Positions 39,718 through 46,057 are shown, counted from the first letter of the stretch. The stretch: 46,057 nucleotides of DNA from Nanobdellota archaeon (GCA_038045145.1 JBBSYQ010000006.1:1-46057); one strand, 5' to 3'. Numbers and translations are program-made. Notes: generated from the letters alone by a model not told the origin.

Positions 39718-40635
39718 TTACCATAATTTGCATTCGGCAAATCCGTTTTTTTCCTTTAGATTTTCAAGATTATTAATCATCTGATTCAGACTTGCGGAAT
39801 TTTCAAAAGATTCTTCCGAGCTTGTCAACGAACTTAATTCTGGAATTAAATTTGAACTGCATCCTGCTTGAGATACTATTTGTGCTTTGTCTTCATAAAT
39901 AAGGGCAAGTTCCTTGCCTCTTTGCATCAGTCTCTTCAATTGACATTCATAAGTTTCCTTGTCAGAGAAAATTGTGGCATACATCAAAGAGTCTCCGTAA
40001 TATTTTGTTAAATTTTCATCTTTTTCAACGATGTAATTGTTCTCATCAACATTAACATCGCAGTTTCCTCCATTAAAACACACTTCAATTGAATCTGCGG
40101 GGCAATTTGTGAAGAAAATATTTTCAAGATTCAAGTTTGAAATTTCTTCTTTTACTCTGTCCGGCGCGTCGGCAAAACAATAATTGTCGTTTGAGGAAAT
40201 CAAATAAATGACATCCGCGACTTTGAATGGAAATTCAAACGGCTTTGAAAAAAGGAAGAATTTTTTTCCCTCGCTGTAATTCCCTGAAAAGATATTTTTG
40301 TTTTCAAGCCGGATGTTAACGTCGGTATCTGTCCATTTGTTAAAGCTTTTTTGCGAGATTCTTATTGTTTGTCCGCCAAAAACACCTTCATTATCGCATC
40401 TGTTATAAATTCTTGTTTCCGACGGCAGAATCAATGTTGTTTTTTTTCCAGTCTCAAAACCCGTTTCAAGCGGATTTAACAACACGCCTATTTCTTTGGC
40501 GGTTTGCGCATCAACCGCCGTCTGTTCTGTATTGATAATTTTTGTCGTCGCAAAAATAGCAAGAAATAAGATGAACGCGCCAACTATGATTGCAAAAAGC
40601 CATGCAAAGGAAATTTGTAACTGCCCTCTTTTCAT
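39718..40635 (-). CDS. type IV pilin-like protein (class III signal peptide), 305 aa
   Basis: MKRG|QLQISFAWLFAIIVGAFILFLAIF carries the euryarchaeal-type prepilin motif (K/R)G-Q-x-S. Multi-Cys ectodomain. 4-nt overlap with the upstream pilin-like gene. Confidence 0.65.
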   Translation of the reverse strand: MKRGQLQISFAWLFAIIVGAFILFLAIFATTKIINTEQTAVDAQTAKEIGVLLNPLETGFETGKKTTLILPSETRIYNRCDNEGVFGGQTIRISQKSFNKWTDTDVNIRLENKNIFSGNYSEGKKFFLFSKPFEFPFKVADVIYLISSNDNYCFADAPDRVKEEISNLNLENIFFTNCPADSIEVCFNGGNCDVNVDENNYIVEKDENLTKYYGDSLMYATIFSDKETYECQLKRLMQRGKELALIYEDKAQIVSQAGCSSNLIPELSSLTSSEESFENSASLNQMINNLENLKEKNGFAECKLW

Positions 40636-41138
40636 GTTCTTTCAAGTTTTACAAGTGCCTCCCCAAAATCTTTTTTAATTATCAGATTTATTCTGCCGTT
40701 TGCATTTTCAAAACAATAAGGATTTTCATTTTGCACCATTGAATCAATGTCAATATTATTTATTTTATTTGAATCATCTCCTTCGCCGGAACCGACGGGA
40801 TAAAAGAACATATTTTCTTCTCCATAATAAACAAGTTCAAGTTCATCGTAAAAATTTCTGTTGTTTCCTCTTGCTCCGTCGTTGATTTCATAATCCGCAA
40901 AACATACGTATTTTATTTTCGTCGGAAGAAAATATTCTTTTTCCTGGCTTCCTTTGGAGCTCTGCCATATTCTGTCAATGTCTGATTGCAAATCATTTTT
41001 GAATTTTCCGATTTGTGCAGAGTTTTGCCAGCTAAGAAATTTTTGTATGGCGTAAAATGCAAAGATTATAAAAATAATTATCAGGATAATGGAAAAAATC
41101 ATGCCAAAAGATAAGTTCAACTGCCCCCTTTTTGTCAT
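40632..41138 (-). CDS. type IV pilin-like protein (class III signal peptide)
   Basis: MTKRG|QLNLSFGMIFSIILIIIFIIFAF. A minus-strand TATA (reverse complement of 41161-41170) lies about 23 nt upstream of the ATG. Confidence 0.65.
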   Translation of the reverse strand: MTKRGQLNLSFGMIFSIILIIIFIIFAFYAIQKFLSWQNSAQIGKFKNDLQSDIDRIWQSSKGSQEKEYFLPTKIKYVCFADYEINDGARGNNRNFYDELELVYYGEENMFFYPVGSGEGDDSNKINNIDIDSMVQNENPYCFENANGRINLIIKKDFGEALVKLERT

Positions 41139-41189
41139 TGATTAAAAAGAAGTTTCTAACTTATAAAATTTGCTATGGAATTAAACACG

Positions 41190-41218
41190 ATGTATTGCTA
41201 ACTCTACGGGACTTTTAG
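41190..41218. repeat. left terminal inverted repeat
   Basis: ATGTATTGCTAACTCTACGGGACTTTTAG, checked base by base against the reverse complement of 44762-44790 (29/29 match). Confidence 0.9.
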
Positions 41219-41252
41219 AAAACAATAAAAGGTAAAAAATCTTTCCTTTTTC

Positions 41253-41930
41253 ATGAAGAAAGATGAATTGAAAAAAGCCATATTAAAAGAATTAAGAAAT
41301 CCTAAGCTTTACACAGAAAACATAATAAATTATCTTGAAGAAAATCTGGACGATGCTTTTAATGTTTGTTGTCGTAAAAATCTTTCCATAAATGAAAAAT
41401 ATCCAGATTCAAAATATAAAGGGCAATTAGGACAAAAAACAGTTTTTCTAACTGTAAGAATGTTTGATTTATGGGAAAATGCGATTATTGACACTATTTC
41501 AGAACATCTAAAAAAGAAATTTCCAGAAATAAAAGTTATTCCAATTAACGACCCTATTGGAGATATGGGAATAGTTTTTCCAGATGGAGAAATTATGAGG
41601 TGGGAAATTAAATCAAGTCAAGCATTAAATTCCTTTACGGGTGCTACCCATTCAGCTTCAAAATGTGATAATTACATTTTGATAAATTATGCTATTAATA
41701 GAGATTTGAAATTAAGCGAAGATAAAAATAAAGGATTTATTACAGAATTGGCGGTTTTTGTTTGGGATGATATGGAAGCAAAATGGCTCGGAGAACATAG
41801 CGAACATAGTAGTTTTACATCATTGAAAATTCCCGCTGAAATAAAATCAAGTCGTCCAGAAATCATTGTTATTGGAAAATTAGAGCCAAAAACTAAATGG
41901 TCCAATATAGTCAGAAAAAAATTATTTTGA
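41253..41930 (+). CDS. putative type II restriction endonuclease (PD-(D/E)xK)
   Basis: The candidate catalytic core PIGDMGIVFPDGEIMRWEIKSS gives D...E-x-K. It is convergent with the methyltransferase gene and overlaps it by 9 nt. Confidence 0.5.
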   Translation: MKKDELKKAILKELRNPKLYTENIINYLEENLDDAFNVCCRKNLSINEKYPDSKYKGQLGQKTVFLTVRMFDLWENAIIDTISEHLKKKFPEIKVIPINDPIGDMGIVFPDGEIMRWEIKSSQALNSFTGATHSASKCDNYILINYAINRDLKLSEDKNKGFITELAVFVWDDMEAKWLGEHSEHSSFTSLKIPAEIKSSRPEIIVIGKLEPKTKWSNIVRKKLF

Positions 41931-42827
41931 AAATTCGTTAAGGTTTTTATTTGGGAAAGATTGTTTCAATCTTTTTTCTATTAAGTCTATGTATTTCTGA
42001 TTAACATCAAAACCGATATATTTTCTTTTCATTTTTAACGAAACTTCTGCAACAGTTCCGCCCCCCATAAATGGGTCAAGAATTATATCTCCCTCATCAG
42101 TAAGCCATTTTATAAAAAATTCTGGTAATTGTGGATGAAATGGTGCTGGATGTTCCAACCCTCTTAATGCTGAACCCGTATCAAATCTAAAAACCGTTAT
42201 TGGTTTTTTTCCTAATGGATGTGGTTTACTGCTTCCTCTTTGAGAAAGTTCCGTTGTTCCATCTGCTCTTACAATATCATTACCATGAACTTTATTTTTA
42301 AATCTCTTTAATGAAACCTCTGCATAAGGTTCTCTTATTCTGTCCGTATATGTCTTGAAATTTTTGCTATCTTTTACAAAATGGAAAATATATTCCACTC
42401 TATCATTCAACCTTTTTTCTCCCGTCATAGGCAAAGCTGATTTTTTGAACCAAATATATCTATCAAACAATTTTAATCCTGTTTCTTTAACTATTCTATG
42501 AACCAACTCAAAAACATAAGTGCTTCTTTCTCCGTTTGTAGCTCTATCATTTATGTTAAGTATAAATGAACCAGTTGGTTTTAAAAATCTCTGGGCTTCC
42601 TTAAACAATTCTAAGAACCAATTAACATATTCTTCAGGATTAAAAACTTCAACAAATTTTCCATAAGAAACTGTATCTGCATAAGGCGGAGAAGTAACAA
42701 CTAAATCAATGTAATTATCTGGAAGTTTTTTAGACAATTCCATGCAATCTCCAAGATAAGTTTTATTTAATTCAATCTCATTAATTTTATCCGCCATTCT
42801 TTTATACTTTTTCTTATAATCTTTCAT
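41922..42827 (-). CDS. beta-class N4-cytosine/N6-adenine DNA methyltransferase
   Basis: Motif IV is VVTSPPYAD near the N-terminus and motif I is LDPFMGGGTVAEV near the C-terminus, which is the beta-class order. SPPY favours N4-cytosine. ATGA overlap with the transposase stop (42824-42827). Confidence 0.88.
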   Translation of the reverse strand: MKDYKKKYKRMADKINEIELNKTYLGDCMELSKKLPDNYIDLVVTSPPYADTVSYGKFVEVFNPEEYVNWFLELFKEAQRFLKPTGSFILNINDRATNGERSTYVFELVHRIVKETGLKLFDRYIWFKKSALPMTGEKRLNDRVEYIFHFVKDSKNFKTYTDRIREPYAEVSLKRFKNKVHGNDIVRADGTTELSQRGSSKPHPLGKKPITVFRFDTGSALRGLEHPAPFHPQLPEFFIKWLTDEGDIILDPFMGGGTVAEVSLKMKRKYIGFDVNQKYIDLIEKRLKQSFPNKNLNEFSK

Positions 42828-43744
42828 TTTAAATTATTTGTGTTTGAAAGTTTAATCAAGTCAAGCCATTTGTTATTGCCAAGTTTTAATTCAGGAATGG
42901 CTAATTTGTAAGGTTCACATCCTATGGCTTGATGTGAACGAATAAAATTATAGTAGATTGAAAGTCCTTTCATAATAGCGTTTCTCGCTTCTATTGAATT
43001 ATGAACGCCTCTGAAAGTTTTTGTCCTTGCTCTTATGTTGCTGTGCATTCTTTCAACTTTATGATTGAAGCCCTCATTTTTTAACTGCGTAACTCTGTTA
43101 TGCAATACATTATGTTTTCCTAATTTATTATTGTAGCCGAAAACCGATTTAACGACTTTCAAATATGCAAAAAATCCGTCTGTCGTGCATATTTTTATTT
43201 GCTCATCAGTTTTTTCTTTGGCTTTCCCAATAACTTTTTTTATTTCATTTCCGCTTCTTGATTTGCAGAAATTAGAAGCAACCATAAAACGAGTTTCAGT
43301 ATCAATAGCGTCAATAAACCAAGAATGATTTTTCTTTCCCTTTCTTCCATATTCCATCTCATCAACCTGCATTTCTTCACCGCAGTTTATTTTTAGATTA
43401 TCAGTGAAGCCATAAATCATTTTAGAATATTTTAAAATCCATTTATAAATTGAAACATTAGAGCTGTTGTGCGGATAGAAAGCCTGCAAATGCTCCTGAA
43501 CTTTTCTCGTTGAAATTCCTCTATAAAATAAATCCAAACATAAAGTTACTTTTTGCGGAGCATTTTTCATTTTCCAAAATCCTAAATCTTCAACAAACCT
43601 TTTTCCACATTCTTGACAGCCGTATCTCTGTATTAATCCTCTGTTCTGTGTTCTTCGCTGTCCTCTTTTTATTATCTTCTCTGAATTGCATTTAGGACAT
43701 TTCAATACTTTTTTATATTCTATGTTGTTGTTTGTTTGCTCCAT
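42824..43744 (-). CDS. DDE transposase, IS6-like, with N-terminal zinc ribbon
   Basis: CPKCNS...CQECGKRF zinc ribbon. The DDE triad context is QVDEM..., ICTTDGFFAY and NHKVERMHSNIRARTK. The C-terminus YYNFIRSHQAIG is typical of IS6-type enzymes. Confidence 0.8.
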   Translation of the reverse strand: MEQTNNNIEYKKVLKCPKCNSEKIIKRGQRRTQNRGLIQRYGCQECGKRFVEDLGFWKMKNAPQKVTLCLDLFYRGISTRKVQEHLQAFYPHNSSNVSIYKWILKYSKMIYGFTDNLKINCGEEMQVDEMEYGRKGKKNHSWFIDAIDTETRFMVASNFCKSRSGNEIKKVIGKAKEKTDEQIKICTTDGFFAYLKVVKSVFGYNNKLGKHNVLHNRVTQLKNEGFNHKVERMHSNIRARTKTFRGVHNSIEARNAIMKGLSIYYNFIRSHQAIGCEPYKLAIPELKLGNNKWLDLIKLSNTNNLK

Positions 43745-43839
43745 ATTACTTAATTAACCTTACTTTATTGAGTATACCTTACTATATAAACCTTTCTCTA
43801 TTAAGGAAGATTTATAAAGAATTATTACTTATGATGTAT

Positions 43840-44007
43840 ATGGCTGAAATAAAAATTAAAGAGTTTGGAAAGACAGCTTATAAATGCAATAAGTGCAATC
43901 ATATTTGGTTTTCTCGTGGAGATGAACGACCTCTAACTTGCCCAAAGTGTAAAACTGCACGCTGGGATAAAGAGCCGAGAAAAAAGAAATCACAATTCAC
44001 TAAATAA
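43840..44007 (+). CDS. small zinc-ribbon protein (55 aa)
   Basis: MAEIKIKEFGKTAYKCNKCNHIWFSRGDERPLTCPKCKTARWDKEPRKKKSQFTK has C-x2-C...C-x2-C. The ATG is about 20-25 nt after TATA 43812-43819. Confidence 0.5.
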   Translation: MAEIKIKEFGKTAYKCNKCNHIWFSRGDERPLTCPKCKTARWDKEPRKKKSQFTK

Positions 44008-44415
44008 CTTTTGAGTTTCTGAAAAATCGTAAACTTTAAACTTAAGAAATGACAACCTCTCTTTCAACAATGAGTTGCCTGTTAAAACACAAAATTTTAC
44101 TTTTTTCCAAAATAATAAACTTGAAGCTTTTACTATAGAATCAACTTCATCTTTAGAAAAAATATCTATTTCCTTGCATGCTCCTAATAGACAACTTAAA
44201 GAAATTGGTAGGGCATTGTTAAAATATTTCTTCTCCATTACTTCTTTTGTTTTAGAAGTTATTAATAGTAATCCATCTTTTTTATTTGCGATTAAATCTG
44301 CAGACATTGTTTGTAATTCTAATAAAGGTTTTCTATTGGGATTATCTCCATCATACATAATTTCAAGATAAGAATCACATATAATGCTGTCTATGATTAT
44401 TAAATCATAGCCCAT
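43990..44415 (-). CDS. PIN-like domain protein (possible VapC-type toxin, degenerate)
   Basis: LIIIDS (first Asp), LLELQ (Glu), LLLITSKT and DEVDSIV appear in PIN-like order. The fourth acidic position (VLTGN) appears lost. Confidence 0.38.
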   Translation of the reverse strand: MGYDLIIIDSIICDSYLEIMYDGDNPNRKPLLELQTMSADLIANKKDGLLLITSKTKEVMEKKYFNNALPISLSCLLGACKEIDIFSKDEVDSIVKASSLLFWKKVKFCVLTGNSLLKERLSFLKFKVYDFSETQKLFSEL

Positions 44416-44416
44416 T

Positions 44417-44635
44417 TTAATCTTCCTTACAAATGGAAAGAATACCTTCTGTTGTCAGCGGTGCTGCGTCTTCTATAAATACAGGAGAGTTTATACTAAC
44501 TTTAAGAATAAGATTATCGTTTTGTCCTGCTTTTTCTATTACAGCTCTTGCTTTAATAGACGTATTCTTCTCGTCAAAATTTATTTCTTTTCTTTTCATA
44601 TATTCTATCTTCATAAATTTGTTTTCCATATACAT
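44417..44635 (-). CDS. small protein upstream of the PIN-like gene (possible antitoxin)
   Basis: 72 aa, ending 1 nt before the PIN-like ATG. The call rests on gene-pair geometry only. Confidence 0.33.
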   Translation of the reverse strand: MYMENKFMKIEYMKRKEINFDEKNTSIKARAVIEKAGQNDNLILKVSINSPVFIEDAAPLTTEGILSICKED

Positions 44636-44761
44636 TTTTCTCCTTTATTATTTATAAACCTTTTCAAAAGAAAAAATAGCTCATAAACTTATTATAATTT
44701 AATCAATCAAATATTTAAATCTTTGTGAAAATTTCATAATTTACAAACCTTACAGGCATTC

Positions 44762-44790
44762 CTAAAAGTCCCGTAGAGTTAGCAATACAT
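44762..44790. repeat. right terminal inverted repeat
   Basis: CTAAAAGTCCCGTAGAGTTAGCAATACAT is the exact reverse complement of 41190-41218. Confidence 0.9.
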
Positions 44791-44930
44791 AAACACGATA
44801 ATCTTTAAAAAGTTCTGATTTTGCCTGACTTGTTAAACAAATAAAATGACTCACTCATCAGTTCGTTCGTAAGATTTTAATTGCTAAATTAGGTATCATA
44901 AAATATGATGAAGTTTGGAGTGATTATTTT

Positions 44931-46057
44931 TTATTGTTTGTTGCCGAATGCTCTTATTACTATGCTGCACTTATTTGGCGCCGGCTGATTTCCATACACA
45001 TCCTTGCACTTTATGTAAAAGTCCGACGATGTTTTCCAGTCTGTGAAATGATTTATTTTGTTTATCGCAGTCATTTTTATTCCGTCTTCTAAAGGATAAG
45101 AACAGTCAACATCATCATAAACACACGATGCCTCTTCATTTGTGATTATCTTTAGGTATCTTTCTTCTTTGTAAGTCCTCACAACAATCGGCGATTCGGT
45201 GTCTGATTCAACATCAAAGTTTATTGTTTTTGAATCCGCGTTTCCGCCGAGGTCAATGCATTTTATGTAATAAATGTAGGATAAATCTCCAAGCAGCCAT
45301 AAATCCTGCGAGTGCTGGTATGAATTTGTGTTGAAGAATGCAACATAATCTTTGTCTTCTCCGGTTTCACTGAAGTAGCATACTGATTTTCCCTCGTCAT
45401 AACCCGCAGATGTTTTTGCGTTTAAAGTTACCTTTACAGTATTTGTTGAATCTTTTACTGTAATATTATTTGGAGATGCAGAATCAATTACCAACGGCTG
45501 TGTTCCCTTAAGGATTAATTTATAAGATTCTTCATTGACATTTCTGTCGCTTGCCTGCTGCGCATTTGGCTGGTCTTTGCATCTGAAATAAAACTCGTTG
45601 TCAAATCTGTCTTTCAGTCCTGTAAGCGTCGCGGAACATGAGTAAAGCATTCTCGCGTTCATTTCAATTGTTCTTAATGAGCATGTCATTGTTTCTTCCA
45701 TTTTGTCGTAACTCTGGTCGCGATGACTCCACTTGCATTCCGCAGGCTCGTTGACAAATAACTGCATATCTACTGAACTCTGATTGTAAGCAATAGGCAT
45801 TTCATTAGGTATGCTCGTCGAATCTATTAAAGGAGGAGTTGTATCAGGACCTTGTTGAACGCAGAATCTGAACACGAAGTTTGCAACATTTGCGTTGCCG
45901 CTTGCATCCCTGCATCTTACGAACAATCCAACTTGTCCGTCGCCAGGCATTTCAATTCCTTCTGATTCAAGATTTTTAGGTCCGGGCAGAGACATTGTTT
46001 GAGTATGGTTGTATATTGATAAAGTAGTTCCCCCGAAGAAATAACTCATGTTCTCAT
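44931..46057 (-). CDS. large extracellular repeat-domain protein, 5' end beyond window
   Basis: At least four ~100-aa repeats each end in a [FY]-x-[FIV]-[RK]-C-x-D-x-x-G-N motif (LFVRCRDASGN, FYFRCKDQPN, YYIKCIDLGGN, FYIKCKDVYGN). The frame stays open to the window edge. Confidence 0.7.
   Translation of the reverse strand, partial: ENMSYFFGGTTLSIYNHTQTMSLPGPKNLESEGIEMPGDGQVGLFVRCRDASGNANVANFVFRFCVQQGPDTTPPLIDSTSIPNEMPIAYNQSSVDMQLFVNEPAECKWSHRDQSYDKMEETMTCSLRTIEMNARMLYSCSATLTGLKDRFDNEFYFRCKDQPNAQQASDRNVNEESYKLILKGTQPLVIDSASPNNITVKDSTNTVKVTLNAKTSAGYDEGKSVCYFSETGEDKDYVAFFNTNSYQHSQDLWLLGDLSYIYYIKCIDLGGNADSKTINFDVESDTESPIVVRTYKEERYLKIITNEEASCVYDDVDCSYPLEDGIKMTAINKINHFTDWKTSSDFYIKCKDVYGNQPAPNKCSIVIRAFGNKQ

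What the first reader, a model, noticed from the sequence alone, without database searches (positions are those of the whole stretch)
41183..44797. Intact 3.6-kb IS6-like transposon whose single IR pair encloses an R-M system, a PIN-like pair and a zinc-ribbon gene
Seen in sequence: the terminal inverted repeats match 29/29 (41190-41218 and 44762-44790). A 7-bp direct repeat AAACACG abuts both ends. If the terminal IR bases are counted, the identity extends to the 10-mer TAAACACGAT. Inside are six ORFs, with the DDE transposase stop overlapping the methyltransferase start (ATGA at 42824-42827). Established knowledge: IS6-type elements are usually about 0.8 kb with only a transposase and an 8-bp duplication. 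Inference: this is a recently inserted, probably still mobile, cargo-carrying unit that moves two addiction/defence modules together. That is unusual for this family and for a reduced archaeal genome. Co-transcription of the transposase with the methylase would tie transposition to protective methylation.
Basis: partly seen in the sequence, partly recalled or inferred. Interest (0 to 1): 0.8.

Follow-up and report, generated by a model that had tools for sequence, protein, structure and literature searches.

The report
Cargo-carrying IS6-like transposon in DPANN archaeon
This is an intact 3.6-kb jumping gene in a tiny-genome archaeon that carries a restriction-modification system, and it belongs to a large, apparently undescribed family of IS6-related transposons that all carry extra genes, about half of them a DNA methylase.

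Summary

**What holds**
- Near-perfect terminal inverted repeats (31 nt, one mismatch) at 41191-41221 and 44759-44789 enclose six ORFs.
- The transposase is IS6-related. A profile comparison with ISCpe7 gives 99.1% probability, and the IRs share TGTTAAGTTAAA in the same register.
- The methylase and the 225-aa gene form a type II R-M pair. The 225-aa protein models as an EcoRV-like PD-(D/E)XK nuclease.
- The PIN-like call has only weak fold support.

**Corrections**
- The target duplication is 9 bp (TAAACACGA), not 7. Forty-two of 51 related elements also show perfect 9-bp duplications; IS6 proper makes 8 bp.
- The zinc-ribbon gene is not cargo. It sits divergently upstream of the transposase in at least 49 of 79 related loci.
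- Cargo is the rule in this DPANN clade. Fifty-two delimited elements (window included) measure 1.9-8.3 kb, median 3.6 kb.

**Family-level findings**
- At least 22 of 45 elements carry a DNA methylase.
- In 14 of 45, a methylase from one of four unrelated families abuts the transposase stop (gap -40 to +3 nt). Other same-strand neighbours sit 34-106 nt away.

Four related genomes have the flanking genes adjacent without the element.

Verdict: new variant of a known kind; moderately high interest.

The parts
41182..41190 (.). Target-site duplication, copy 1 (TAAACACGA, 9 bp)
   Evidence: Read directly from the sequence. The 9-bp length follows from the IR tip position conserved in the family; 42 of 51 related elements have perfect 9-bp duplications.
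41191..41221 (+). Terminal inverted repeat at the end distal to the transposase start (TGTATTGCTAACTCTACGGGACTTTTAGAAA)
   Evidence: It matches the family IR position-weight matrix (score 21.6) and the consensus TncATTGtTAcnTtAacGG.
41253..41930 (+). 225-aa type II restriction endonuclease candidate (PD-(D/E)XK, EcoRV-like fold)
   Evidence: No Pfam, NCBIfam or PADLOC hit. It has 90 homologues, all unannotated. D104, E118 and K120 are invariant. The AlphaFold2 model has pLDDT 93.6. The best Foldseek PDB hits are EcoRV (E 8.6e-4, prob 0.99), Hjc, PvuII, DpnI and NaeI. It is found convergent with, and overlapping, the same methylase in L081-L089 and L058.
41922..42827 (-). 301-aa DNA methyltransferase (N6_N4_Mtase, motif TSPPY; probably N4-cytosine or N6-adenine, beta class)
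   Evidence: Pfam PF01555, E 1.5e-45; PADLOC MTase_II, 5.6e-49. Its start overlaps the transposase stop by 4 nt and its 3' end overlaps the endonuclease gene by 9 nt.
42824..43744 (-). 306-aa DDE transposase with N-terminal zinc finger, IS6-related
   Evidence: PF13610, 35.5 bits against a cut-off of 27. NCBIfam IS6 66 bits (cut-off 125), IS1 55 bits, and the IS1/IS1595 zinc domain 32 bits (cut-off 28). More than 1200 homologues, mostly from DPANN archaea. D128, D189, E231 and R238 are invariant. hhalign to ISCpe7 gives 99.1%, E 8.7e-19.
43745..43839 (.). 95-bp divergent intergenic region between transposase and zinc-ribbon gene; likely holds both promoters (TATA-like TTTATATA and TTTATAAA)
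   Evidence: Read from the sequence. The promoter assignment is inference only.
43840..44007 (+). 55-aa zinc-ribbon protein (CxxC...CxxC), family-typical companion of the transposase
   Evidence: A divergent homologue lies within 77-221 bp upstream of the transposase in at least 49 of 79 related loci. Homologues start MAEIKIKEF, which supports the ATG at 43840. Only sub-threshold Pfam hits.
43990..44415 (-). 141-aa PIN-like protein (candidate toxin)
   Evidence: No family hit and only 9 homologues. D4, D9, E58, E61, D92, TGNS112-115 and D130 are invariant. The model has pLDDT 72.5. The top Foldseek hits are PIN-like proteins (HARP RNase P, AF0591, VapC, Utp24, SMG6) but with weak E-values of 0.015-0.5.
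44417..44635 (-). 72-aa protein immediately upstream of the PIN-like gene (candidate antitoxin)
   Evidence: Its stop lies 1 nt from the start of the 141-aa gene. The pair is conserved together in L005 at the same position in the element (71% and 58% identity). No family hit.
44759..44789 (-). Terminal inverted repeat at the end proximal to the transposase start
44790..44798 (.). Target-site duplication, copy 2 (TAAACACGA)

Best explanation
The segment 41191-44789 is one autonomous DDE transposon of 3599 bp. It inserted into the spacer between two pilin-like genes of a Nanoarchaeota (DPANN) genome and made a 9-bp staggered cut that became the duplication TAAACACGA.

Its engine is a 306-aa IS6-related transposase with a zinc finger. 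The transposase recognises terminal repeats of about 25-31 bp. A small divergently transcribed zinc-ribbon protein accompanies it and is probably a regulator or DNA-binding helper.

The rest is cargo:
- a type II restriction-modification pair, with the methylase gene starting on the transposase stop codon and the endonuclease gene convergent to it;
- a two-gene module that may be a PIN-type toxin-antitoxin.

The element belongs to a large DPANN-wide family in which the same engine and ends carry very different cargo. About half of the elements carry DNA methylases or whole R-M systems. R-M cassettes are exchanged between element lineages by recombination.

**Shown:** the ends, the duplication, the homologies, the family pattern and the insertion relative to related genomes.

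**Inferred:** the transposition chemistry (probably replicative through cointegrates, as in IS6); co-transcription and translational coupling of transposase and methylase, so that methylation is set up whenever the element is expressed; and stabilisation of the element by post-segregational killing.
For: **Ends and duplication.**

**Family-wide structure.** Fifty-two elements (the window's plus 51 relatives) were delimited with a conserved IR tip. They span 1890-8342 bp with a median near 3.6 kb, and 43 of them (window included) have perfect 9-bp duplications.

**IS6 relationship of the transposase.**. The ISCpe7 IR shares TGTTAAGTTAAA in the same register.

**Zinc-ribbon companion.**

**Cargo census.**
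- 130 protein clusters, 108 of them singletons.
- Pfam counts: N6_N4 13, C5 4, D12 4, N6_Mtase 4, plus Fic, MazE, Mrr, MvaI/BcnI and others.
- At least 22 of 45 elements carry a methylase.

**Methylase position.** A methylase sits directly 3' of the transposase with a gap of -40 to +3 nt in 14 of 45 elements. Non-methylase same-strand neighbours have gaps of 34-106 nt (Mann-Whitney p = 1.4e-4). The methylases come from four families.

**Partner nucleases in relatives.** HNH, BsaWI-like, MvaI/BcnI and an Mrr fusion.

**Endonuclease fold.**

**Cassette exchange.** The same R-M pair (86-94% aa identity) lies beside a transposase only 53% identical, in an element with different IRs and its own 9-bp duplication (L084).

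**Insertion.** The flanking genes are adjacent, 107-506 bp apart, without the element in L097-L100.

**Composition.** Element GC is 0.28-0.32 against 0.35-0.39 in the 2 kb on either side; the window as a whole ranges 0.31-0.43.
Against: - No second copy or alternative insertion site of this exact element was found.
- The four other contigs from Hainich groundwater and related runs that cover the junction are all occupied at the same site; two more break at the boundary and none is empty. Current mobility is therefore unproven.
- The empty sites come from relatives with only 42-64% protein identity, so the empty site cannot be compared at nucleotide level.
- Co-transcription and translational coupling are inferred from gene spacing only.
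- ORF starts were taken as the first ATG, which may exaggerate some overlaps (-20 and -40 nt).
- The N6_N4 methylases that follow the transposase may descend from few capture events, so the 14 cases are not independent.
- PIN assignment rests on weak Foldseek E-values and a model of pLDDT 72.
- The endonuclease's TM-scores to EcoRV are low (about 0.34).
Confidence: 0.8

Rival explanations
1. The element is a fixed, no longer mobile relic. It inserted once in an ancestor of this population and is now kept only because the R-M and toxin modules make its loss lethal.
For: Four other contigs covering the junction show the same occupied site, two more break at the boundary, and none is empty or at a second site. 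The exact transposase is recorded on only one contig.
Against: The IRs are 31 nt with a single mismatch and the 9-bp duplication is perfect. The transposase keeps every residue that is invariant in the family. Two assemblies break contigs exactly at the element boundary, as happens at repeats or polymorphic insertions. Many relatives sit on short contigs that end at the IRs (L012, L018, L021, L054).
Confidence: 0.3
2. The transposase belongs to the IS1 family (single-ORF archaeal type) rather than to IS6, so the element is an IS1-type transporter IS.
For: The 9-bp duplication is the IS1 hallmark (established knowledge). The N-terminal zinc domain passes the NCBIfam IS1/IS1595 domain cut-off (32.3 against 28). 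All 31 family members also hit the IS1 model (best 2.5e-16). IS1-annotated plasmid genes match the N-terminal half.
Against: The IS6 model scores better in all respects (best 9.5e-31). Pfam IS240/IS6 DDE passes its gathering score. The full-length best annotated relatives are IS6-like ISCpe7 and hhalign gives 99.1% over the whole protein. The IR core TGTTAAGTTAAA is identical to ISCpe7's at the same distance from the tip. The IS1 model score (55) is below its cut-off (100).
Confidence: 0.12
3. The R-M pair is the real selfish mobile unit. It inserted itself into a pre-existing small IS, and the present six-gene unit has never moved as a whole.
For: The same R-M pair (86-94% aa) is found with a transposase only 53% identical and with different IRs (L084). 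It is also found beside a truncated transposase next to a DUF5906 gene with no IRs (L081, L082). The closest transposases (76-78%, L001 and L002) carry other cargo.
Against: This explains how cargo is acquired but not the present structure. The perfect 9-bp duplication lies outside both IRs, so the last event moved the whole 3.6-kb unit. No repeats or duplications flank the R-M pair inside the element.
Confidence: 0.15
4. The IR pair and the flanking repeat are chance matches or an assembly artefact.
For: None beyond the general possibility in an AT-rich MAG contig.
Against: Zero matches are expected in shuffles. The same junctions occur in independent assemblies from several runs. The same IR consensus and 9-bp duplication are seen in 42 other elements.
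Confidence: 0.01

Closest known systems
IS6 family, zinc-finger branch (clade h, e.g. ISCpe7 of Clostridium perfringens)
   Same: The DDE transposase has an N-terminal CxxC zinc finger and is homologous over its full length (24% identity over 89% of the query; hhalign 99.1%). A basic residue lies 7 positions after the catalytic E (E231/R238). The IR core TGTTAAGTTAAA starts 5 nt from the tip in both.
   Different: In L104, ISCpe7 is 1273 bp with one gene and an 8-bp duplication, ACTCAAAC. The DPANN elements make 9-bp duplications, have a T tip instead of the GG tip described for IS6, have longer IRs (about 25-31 bp against 14-20) and always carry extra genes. They score below the NCBIfam IS6 cut-off (66 against 125). 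The IS6 review lists a single passenger-carrying member, ISDsp3 (PMC7986276).
Transporter IS (tIS), or unit transposons with passenger genes, as described for families such as IS1595 and IS1 (ISfinder usage)
   Same: One IR pair, one transposase, and passenger genes inside the IRs. [quoted passage not shown]
   Different: Here passenger carriage is universal in the clade rather than occasional. The cargo is dominated by DNA methylases and R-M systems, and the host range is DPANN archaea. Details of IS1595 and ISMhu11 passenger-carrying subgroups are from my memory only; no paper was found for ISMhu11.
Transposon-like mobile forms of R-M systems (Furuta, Abe and Kobayashi 2010, PMC2853133)
   Same: R-M genes are bounded by inverted repeats and a short target duplication, for example an 8-bp duplication in Xanthomonas oryzae.
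   Different: [quoted passage not shown] The present element is autonomous, archaeal and one of a large family.
PvuII/EcoRV-type type IIP R-M systems
   Same: A small PD-(D/E)XK endonuclease with an EcoRV/PvuII-like fold is paired, convergently, with a beta-class methylase that has a TSPPY motif. The TSPPY/N4-cytosine association is established knowledge recalled from memory.
   Different: The endonuclease has no detectable sequence similarity to any Pfam, PADLOC or PDB entry. The recognition site is unknown. No C-protein gene is present; instead the methylase is coupled to the transposase gene.

Membership tests
IS6 family (ISfinder sense) | DDE transposase of the IS6/IS240 type with K/R seven residues after the catalytic E | tested here: met
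   PF13610, 35.5 bits against a gathering score of 27. D128, D189, E231 and R238 are invariant. hhalign to ISCpe7 gives 99.1%. However, the NCBIfam equivalog cut-off is not reached (66 against 125).
IS6 family (ISfinder sense) | 8-bp target-site duplication | tested here: not met
   The window has a 9-bp duplication, as do 42 of 51 delimited relatives. The IS6 review gives 8 bp, and ISCpe7 in L104 has 8 bp.
IS6 family (ISfinder sense) | Short (14-20 bp) IRs with a GG tip and internal cTGTt...caaa motifs | tested here: inconclusive
   The internal TTGTT/CTGTT motif is present and the register is the same as in ISCpe7. The tip is T[AGT], not GG, and the IRs are about 25-31 bp. Motif description from PMC7986276.
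IS6 family (ISfinder sense) | Length about 0.7-0.9 kb (up to 1.7 kb) with a single transposase ORF | tested here: not met
   The window element is 3599 bp with six ORFs. Relatives span 1890-8342 bp and none is a bare IS.
IS6 family (ISfinder sense) | Replicative transposition through cointegrates | not testable with these tools
   This needs a transposition assay. Only simple insertions with duplications were seen.
IS1 family | IS1-type transposase (InsAB' or a single ORF) reaching the family model cut-off | tested here: not met
   NCBIfam IS1 gives 55 bits against a cut-off of 100 and is always weaker than IS6 across the 31 members. Only the N-terminal zinc domain passes (32.3 against 28).
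IS1 family | 9-bp (8-9 bp) target duplication | tested here: met
   9 bp. The IS1 value itself is from established knowledge and was not checked in a paper here.
Type II restriction-modification system | A DNA methyltransferase with type II MTase motifs | tested here: met
   PF01555, 1.5e-45; PADLOC MTase_II, 5.6e-49; TSPPY and FMGGGT motifs in the sequence.
Type II restriction-modification system | An adjacent endonuclease with a nuclease fold and catalytic motif | tested here: met
   The pLDDT 93.6 model matches EcoRV at E 8.6e-4, followed by Hjc, PvuII, DpnI and NaeI. D104...E118-x-K120 are invariant in 44 sequences. The gene pair is conserved together.
Type II restriction-modification system | Shared sequence specificity of cleavage and methylation | not testable with these tools
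   This needs REBASE comparison, methylome data or enzymology.
VapBC-type (PIN) toxin-antitoxin | PIN fold with conserved acidic residues | tested here: inconclusive
   No Pfam or NCBIfam hit. The model has pLDDT 72.5, and PIN-like proteins dominate the Foldseek list but at E 0.015-0.5 with TM about 0.5. D9, E58/E61, D92 and D130 are invariant, but the usual fourth acidic position reads TGN.
VapBC-type (PIN) toxin-antitoxin | A small upstream antitoxin with a DNA-binding fold in the same operon | tested here: inconclusive
   The 72-aa gene ends 1 nt before the 141-aa gene and is conserved with it in L005. No fold or family could be assigned.
Transporter IS / unit transposon | A single IR pair and target duplication enclosing a transposase plus passenger genes | tested here: met

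The most novel reading that the evidence does not exclude
DPANN archaea harbour a previously undescribed, very abundant family of IS6-related unit transposons. The family is defined by a 9-bp duplication, T-tipped IRs of about 25 bp, and a zinc-finger transposase that usually has a small zinc-ribbon partner. These elements serve as the main vehicles for R-M systems, orphan methylases and toxin modules in these reduced genomes.

In this family, DNA methylase genes from at least four unrelated families have been captured repeatedly in a translationally coupled slot directly behind the transposase. That implies a functional link between transposition and methylation. Two possibilities are methylase-first establishment of the R-M system in each new genome, and methylation-dependent control of the element.
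Probability: 0.45. Interest if true: 0.75.

Novelty: new variant of a known kind. Interest (0 to 1): 0.62.

Why it matters
DPANN archaea have tiny genomes and depend on hosts, and how they gain and shuffle defence genes is poorly known.

This family would be a concrete, widespread mechanism. A single transposase type moves dozens of different R-M systems, orphan methylases, Fic/Doc and MazE-type modules, and even metabolic genes between genomes.

It also changes the picture of IS6. That family is known as a bare 0.8-kb IS that moves cargo only as pseudo-compound transposons. Here an IS6-related lineage works as a unit transposon and makes a different cut stagger.

The recurrent transposase-methylase coupling gives a testable hypothesis for how a mobile R-M system avoids killing its new host. 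The extreme avoidance of GATC and other 4-bp palindromes in the host contig shows that restriction pressure on this genome is real.

Tried and rejected
- **Target duplication of 7 or 8 bp.** Sequence alone allows 5, 7, 8 or 9 bp depending on where the tips are placed. I rejected 7 and 8 after 42 relatives gave perfect 9-mers with the tip at T.
- **Zinc-ribbon gene as cargo.** Rejected because of its conserved divergent position.
- **Composite or pseudo-compound transposon.** Rejected: there is one transposase and one IR pair, and no second IR copy in the window.
- **ISMhu11 (a passenger-carrying IS1 subgroup recalled from memory).** No paper could be found, so this remains only a lead.
- **Sequence searches for the endonuclease, the 141-aa and the 72-aa proteins** in Pfam, NCBIfam, PADLOC and PDB gave nothing.
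- **Strain-level empty site.** Looking up the exact downstream gene gave four occupied contigs, two that break at the boundary and none empty.
- **Viral contigs.** Only one relative was found, so there is no evidence that viruses are the usual carriers.
- **Guessing the recognition site from palindrome avoidance.** Several 4-mers are depleted (GATC, TCGA, GGCC, ACGT), but none can be assigned to this R-M system.
- **Solved structures by sequence.** The only transposase relative is the IS256-type ISCth4 at E 5e-4, which is not informative.

Full report
**1. The observation**

- The repeat finder gives one outstanding inverted repeat: arms 41190-41221 and 44759-44790, 32 nt, 97% complementary.
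- A 27-nt core of the repeat occurs exactly twice in the 46,057-bp window, once on each strand. None is expected in 100 dinucleotide-preserving shuffles.
- The flanks read ...GGAAT TAAACACGA TGTATTGC... on one side and ...GCAATACA TAAACACGA TAATC... on the other.
- The methylase start (42827) overlaps the transposase stop (42824-42826) as ATGA.
- The methylase and the 225-aa gene converge and overlap by 9 nt.
- The 72-aa and 141-aa genes are 1 nt apart.

**2. Where the ends really are**

From the sequence alone the duplication could be 5, 7, 8 or 9 bp, depending on where the tips are placed. I settled this with relatives.

- The transposase has more than 1200 homologues, almost all from Nanoarchaeota, Woesearchaeota or Pacearchaeota MAGs. 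The window itself is a whole 46,057-bp contig of a 'Nanoarchaeota archaeon' MAG.
- A scan of one genome per species returned 80 loci that encode relatives.
- A search for inverted repeats around each transposase showed a conserved terminal sequence.
- A position-weight matrix built from it found one inward-facing tip on each side of the transposase in nearly every locus with enough flanking DNA.
- Fifty-two elements (the window's plus 51 relatives) could be delimited, and 43 of them (window included) have perfect 9-bp direct repeats abutting the tips.
- The consensus end is TncATTGtTAcnTtAacGGgtgnTa.
- In the window this places the element at 41191-44789 (3599 bp), with the duplication TAAACACGA at 41182-41190 and 44790-44798.

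**3. What family the engine belongs to**

- The 306-aa protein passes the Pfam gathering score for the IS240/IS6 DDE domain (35.5 against 27).
- With NCBIfam it matches IS6 best (66 bits) and then IS1 (55 bits), both below their cut-offs. It passes the IS1/IS1595 N-terminal zinc-domain model.
- All 31 aligned family members behave the same way. The best IS6 E-value is 9.5e-31 and the best IS1 is 2.5e-16.
- Among annotated plasmids the best full-length relatives are the 'IS6-like element ISCpe7 family' transposases of Clostridium perfringens (24% identity over 89% of the protein). IS1 transposases match only the N-terminal half.
- A profile comparison with ISCpe7 gives 99.1% probability, E 8.7e-19, from the zinc finger to the C-terminus.
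- I read the ISCpe7 copy in L104. It is 1273 bp and flanked by the 8-bp repeat ACTCAAAC. Its ends read nnATCTGTTAAGTTAAA.
- The twelve bases TGTTAAGTTAAA are the same as in many DPANN ends (TACATTGTTAAGTTAAAGG) and start at the same distance from the tip.
- 'IS6-like' is therefore right, and the closest known branch is the zinc-finger clade h of the IS6 review (PMC7986276).
- Three of the IS6 hallmarks listed in that review are not met: the 8-bp repeat, the GG tip and the length of about 0.8 kb.

**4. Cargo is the rule in this clade**

- The 52 delimited elements measure 1890-8342 bp, with a median near 3.6 kb. The engine alone needs about 1.3 kb.
- ORFs in 45 well-delimited elements fall into 130 clusters, 108 of them singletons.
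- A Pfam census of the 120 cargo proteins of at least 90 aa gave:
  - N6_N4_Mtase 13;
  - C-5 methylase 4;
  - D12 methylase 4;
  - N6_Mtase 4;
  - Fic 4;
  - MazE 2;
  - Mrr 2;
  - MvaI/BcnI 1;
  - NUDIX 2;
  - others.
- Profile searches built from the methylase clusters show at least 22 of 45 elements with a DNA methylase.
- The IS6 review records a single passenger-carrying member.
- A 2026 survey of IS in 17,237 archaeal genomes does not mention passenger genes.
- The 2010 survey of mobile R-M units found no archaeal case.
- I found no description of this family in the searchable literature.

**5. The zinc-ribbon gene**

- tblastn shows a homologue of the 55-aa protein on the opposite strand, 77-221 bp upstream of the transposase match, in at least 49 of 79 loci.
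- It is therefore a companion of the engine, not cargo.
- Elements without it often have a small AbrB-like or ribbon-helix-helix gene near the same end.
- In L033 and L040 the zinc ribbon is fused to a Fic/Doc domain.
- Its role as a regulator or DNA-binding helper is inferred.

**6. The R-M pair**

- The 301-aa protein is a typical type II methylase (PF01555, 1.5e-45; PADLOC MTase_II).
- The 225-aa protein has 90 homologues, all unannotated. D104, E118 and K120 are invariant.
- The AlphaFold2 model is confident (pLDDT 93.6).
- Its best PDB matches are EcoRV (E 8.6e-4, probability 0.99), then Hjc resolvases, PvuII, DpnI and NaeI. TM-scores are low, about 0.34.
- I read this as a PD-(D/E)XK type II endonuclease of a new sequence family.
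- The two genes stay together, convergent and overlapping, in L058 and L081-L089.

**7. Cassette exchange**

- In L084 the same R-M pair (87% and 86% aa identity) follows a transposase only 53% identical to the window's.
- That element has different IRs (TACATTGTAAAGTTATAGG) and its own 9-bp duplication, TTTCCAAGA.
- Conversely, the closest transposases (76-78%, L001 and L002) carry other cargo.
- Cargo therefore moves between element lineages, presumably by recombination.

**8. Transposase-methylase coupling**

- In 14 of 45 elements the gene directly 3' of the transposase, on the same strand, is a DNA methylase with a gap of -40 to +3 nt.
- The eight non-methylase genes in that position have gaps of 34-106 nt (Mann-Whitney p = 1.4e-4).
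- The coupled methylases belong to four families: N6_N4, C-5, D12 and type IIG N6_Mtase.
- Several are followed by a convergent nuclease gene: HNH in L031, BsaWI-like in L052 and MvaI/BcnI in L013. In L001 the methylase is fused to an Mrr domain.
Co-transcription itself is not shown, and the cases are not all independent.

**9. The PIN-like pair**

- The 141-aa protein has only nine homologues and no family hit.
- The model is moderate (pLDDT 72.5).
- PIN-like proteins dominate the Foldseek list (HARP RNase P, AF0591, VapC Rv0301, VapC4, Utp24, SMG6), but at E 0.015-0.5.
- Invariant acidic residues fit a PIN site only in part.
- The pair recurs at the same place in L005.
- A PIN-type toxin-antitoxin is plausible but not established.

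**10. Insertion and mobility**

- Relatives of the upstream gene were fetched from metagenomes.
- In L097, L098, L099 and L100 (42-64% aa identity) the order upstream gene, 168-aa gene, 305-aa gene is kept, with 107-506 bp between the first two genes and no element.
- The element is therefore an insertion into a conserved pilin-like gene cluster.
- Its GC content (0.28-0.32) is lower than that of the 2 kb on either side (0.35-0.39), although the window as a whole ranges 0.31-0.43.
- The exact element with the same flanks occurs in several Logan and ENA assemblies of Hainich groundwater.
- Looking up the exact downstream gene gave four occupied contigs, two that break exactly at the element boundary and none empty.
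- Current mobility is therefore likely, given the intact parts, but unproven.

**11. Verdict**

The element is one member of an apparently undescribed IS6-related family of cargo transposons in DPANN archaea. The two points of wider interest are the family itself (9-bp duplication, obligatory cargo, zinc-ribbon partner) and the recurrent slot for a methylase behind the transposase.

Noticed in passing
window 1-46057: Four-base palindromes are strongly avoided across the contig: GATC 10 observed against 113 expected, TCGA 44 against 107, GGCC 14 against 54, ACGT 23 against 66 (Markov expectation). This points to heavy restriction pressure on this genome. It cannot be assigned to the element's own R-M system.
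   Followed up: partly
window 39718-41138 and 44931-46049: The element sits inside a cluster of genes whose products start with class III (type IV pilin-like) signal peptides (MKRGQLQISF..., MTKRGQLNLSF...). The gene order is conserved in four related metagenome contigs.
   Followed up: partly
L038 3-133 and 7261-7391: A 7391-nt contig (JAHITZ010000002.1) that carries a family member has a perfect 131-nt inverted repeat at its two ends. It could be a linear element with terminal repeats or an assembly artefact.
   Followed up: no
L033 9291-9884 and L040 9261-9860: At the position of the small zinc-ribbon gene these elements encode a protein of about 200 aa in which the zinc ribbon is fused to a Fic/Doc domain (HxFxDGNKR motif).
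   Followed up: no
L081 and L082: The same R-M pair (94% and 90% aa) lies next to a 5'-truncated transposase and a DUF5906 (primase/helicase-like) gene, with no recognisable IRs. This may be a decayed copy on a plasmid or virus.
   Followed up: partly
L026, L041, L047: The three largest elements but one (6.6-8.3 kb) share a four-gene cargo block of large proteins (460-809 aa; three cargo proteins in the census hit Laminin_G_3, not assigned to a locus) that is unrelated to defence.
   Followed up: no
L012 193-723 and L038 2127-2681: A 177-185 aa protein with a PD...EIK-like motif sits at the opposite end of the element from the transposase-coupled methylase. If it is the nuclease, the R and M genes are separated by the transposition core.
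   Followed up: no
L105 start, L108 start, L090 start: Independent short-read assemblies break contigs exactly at, or inside, the element's terminal repeats. This happens at repeats or at insertions that are polymorphic in the population.
   Followed up: partly
L031 4056-4093 and 17176-17213: A 38-nt inverted repeat pair lies 13 kb apart and encloses a family member together with other genes. Its meaning is unknown.
   Followed up: no
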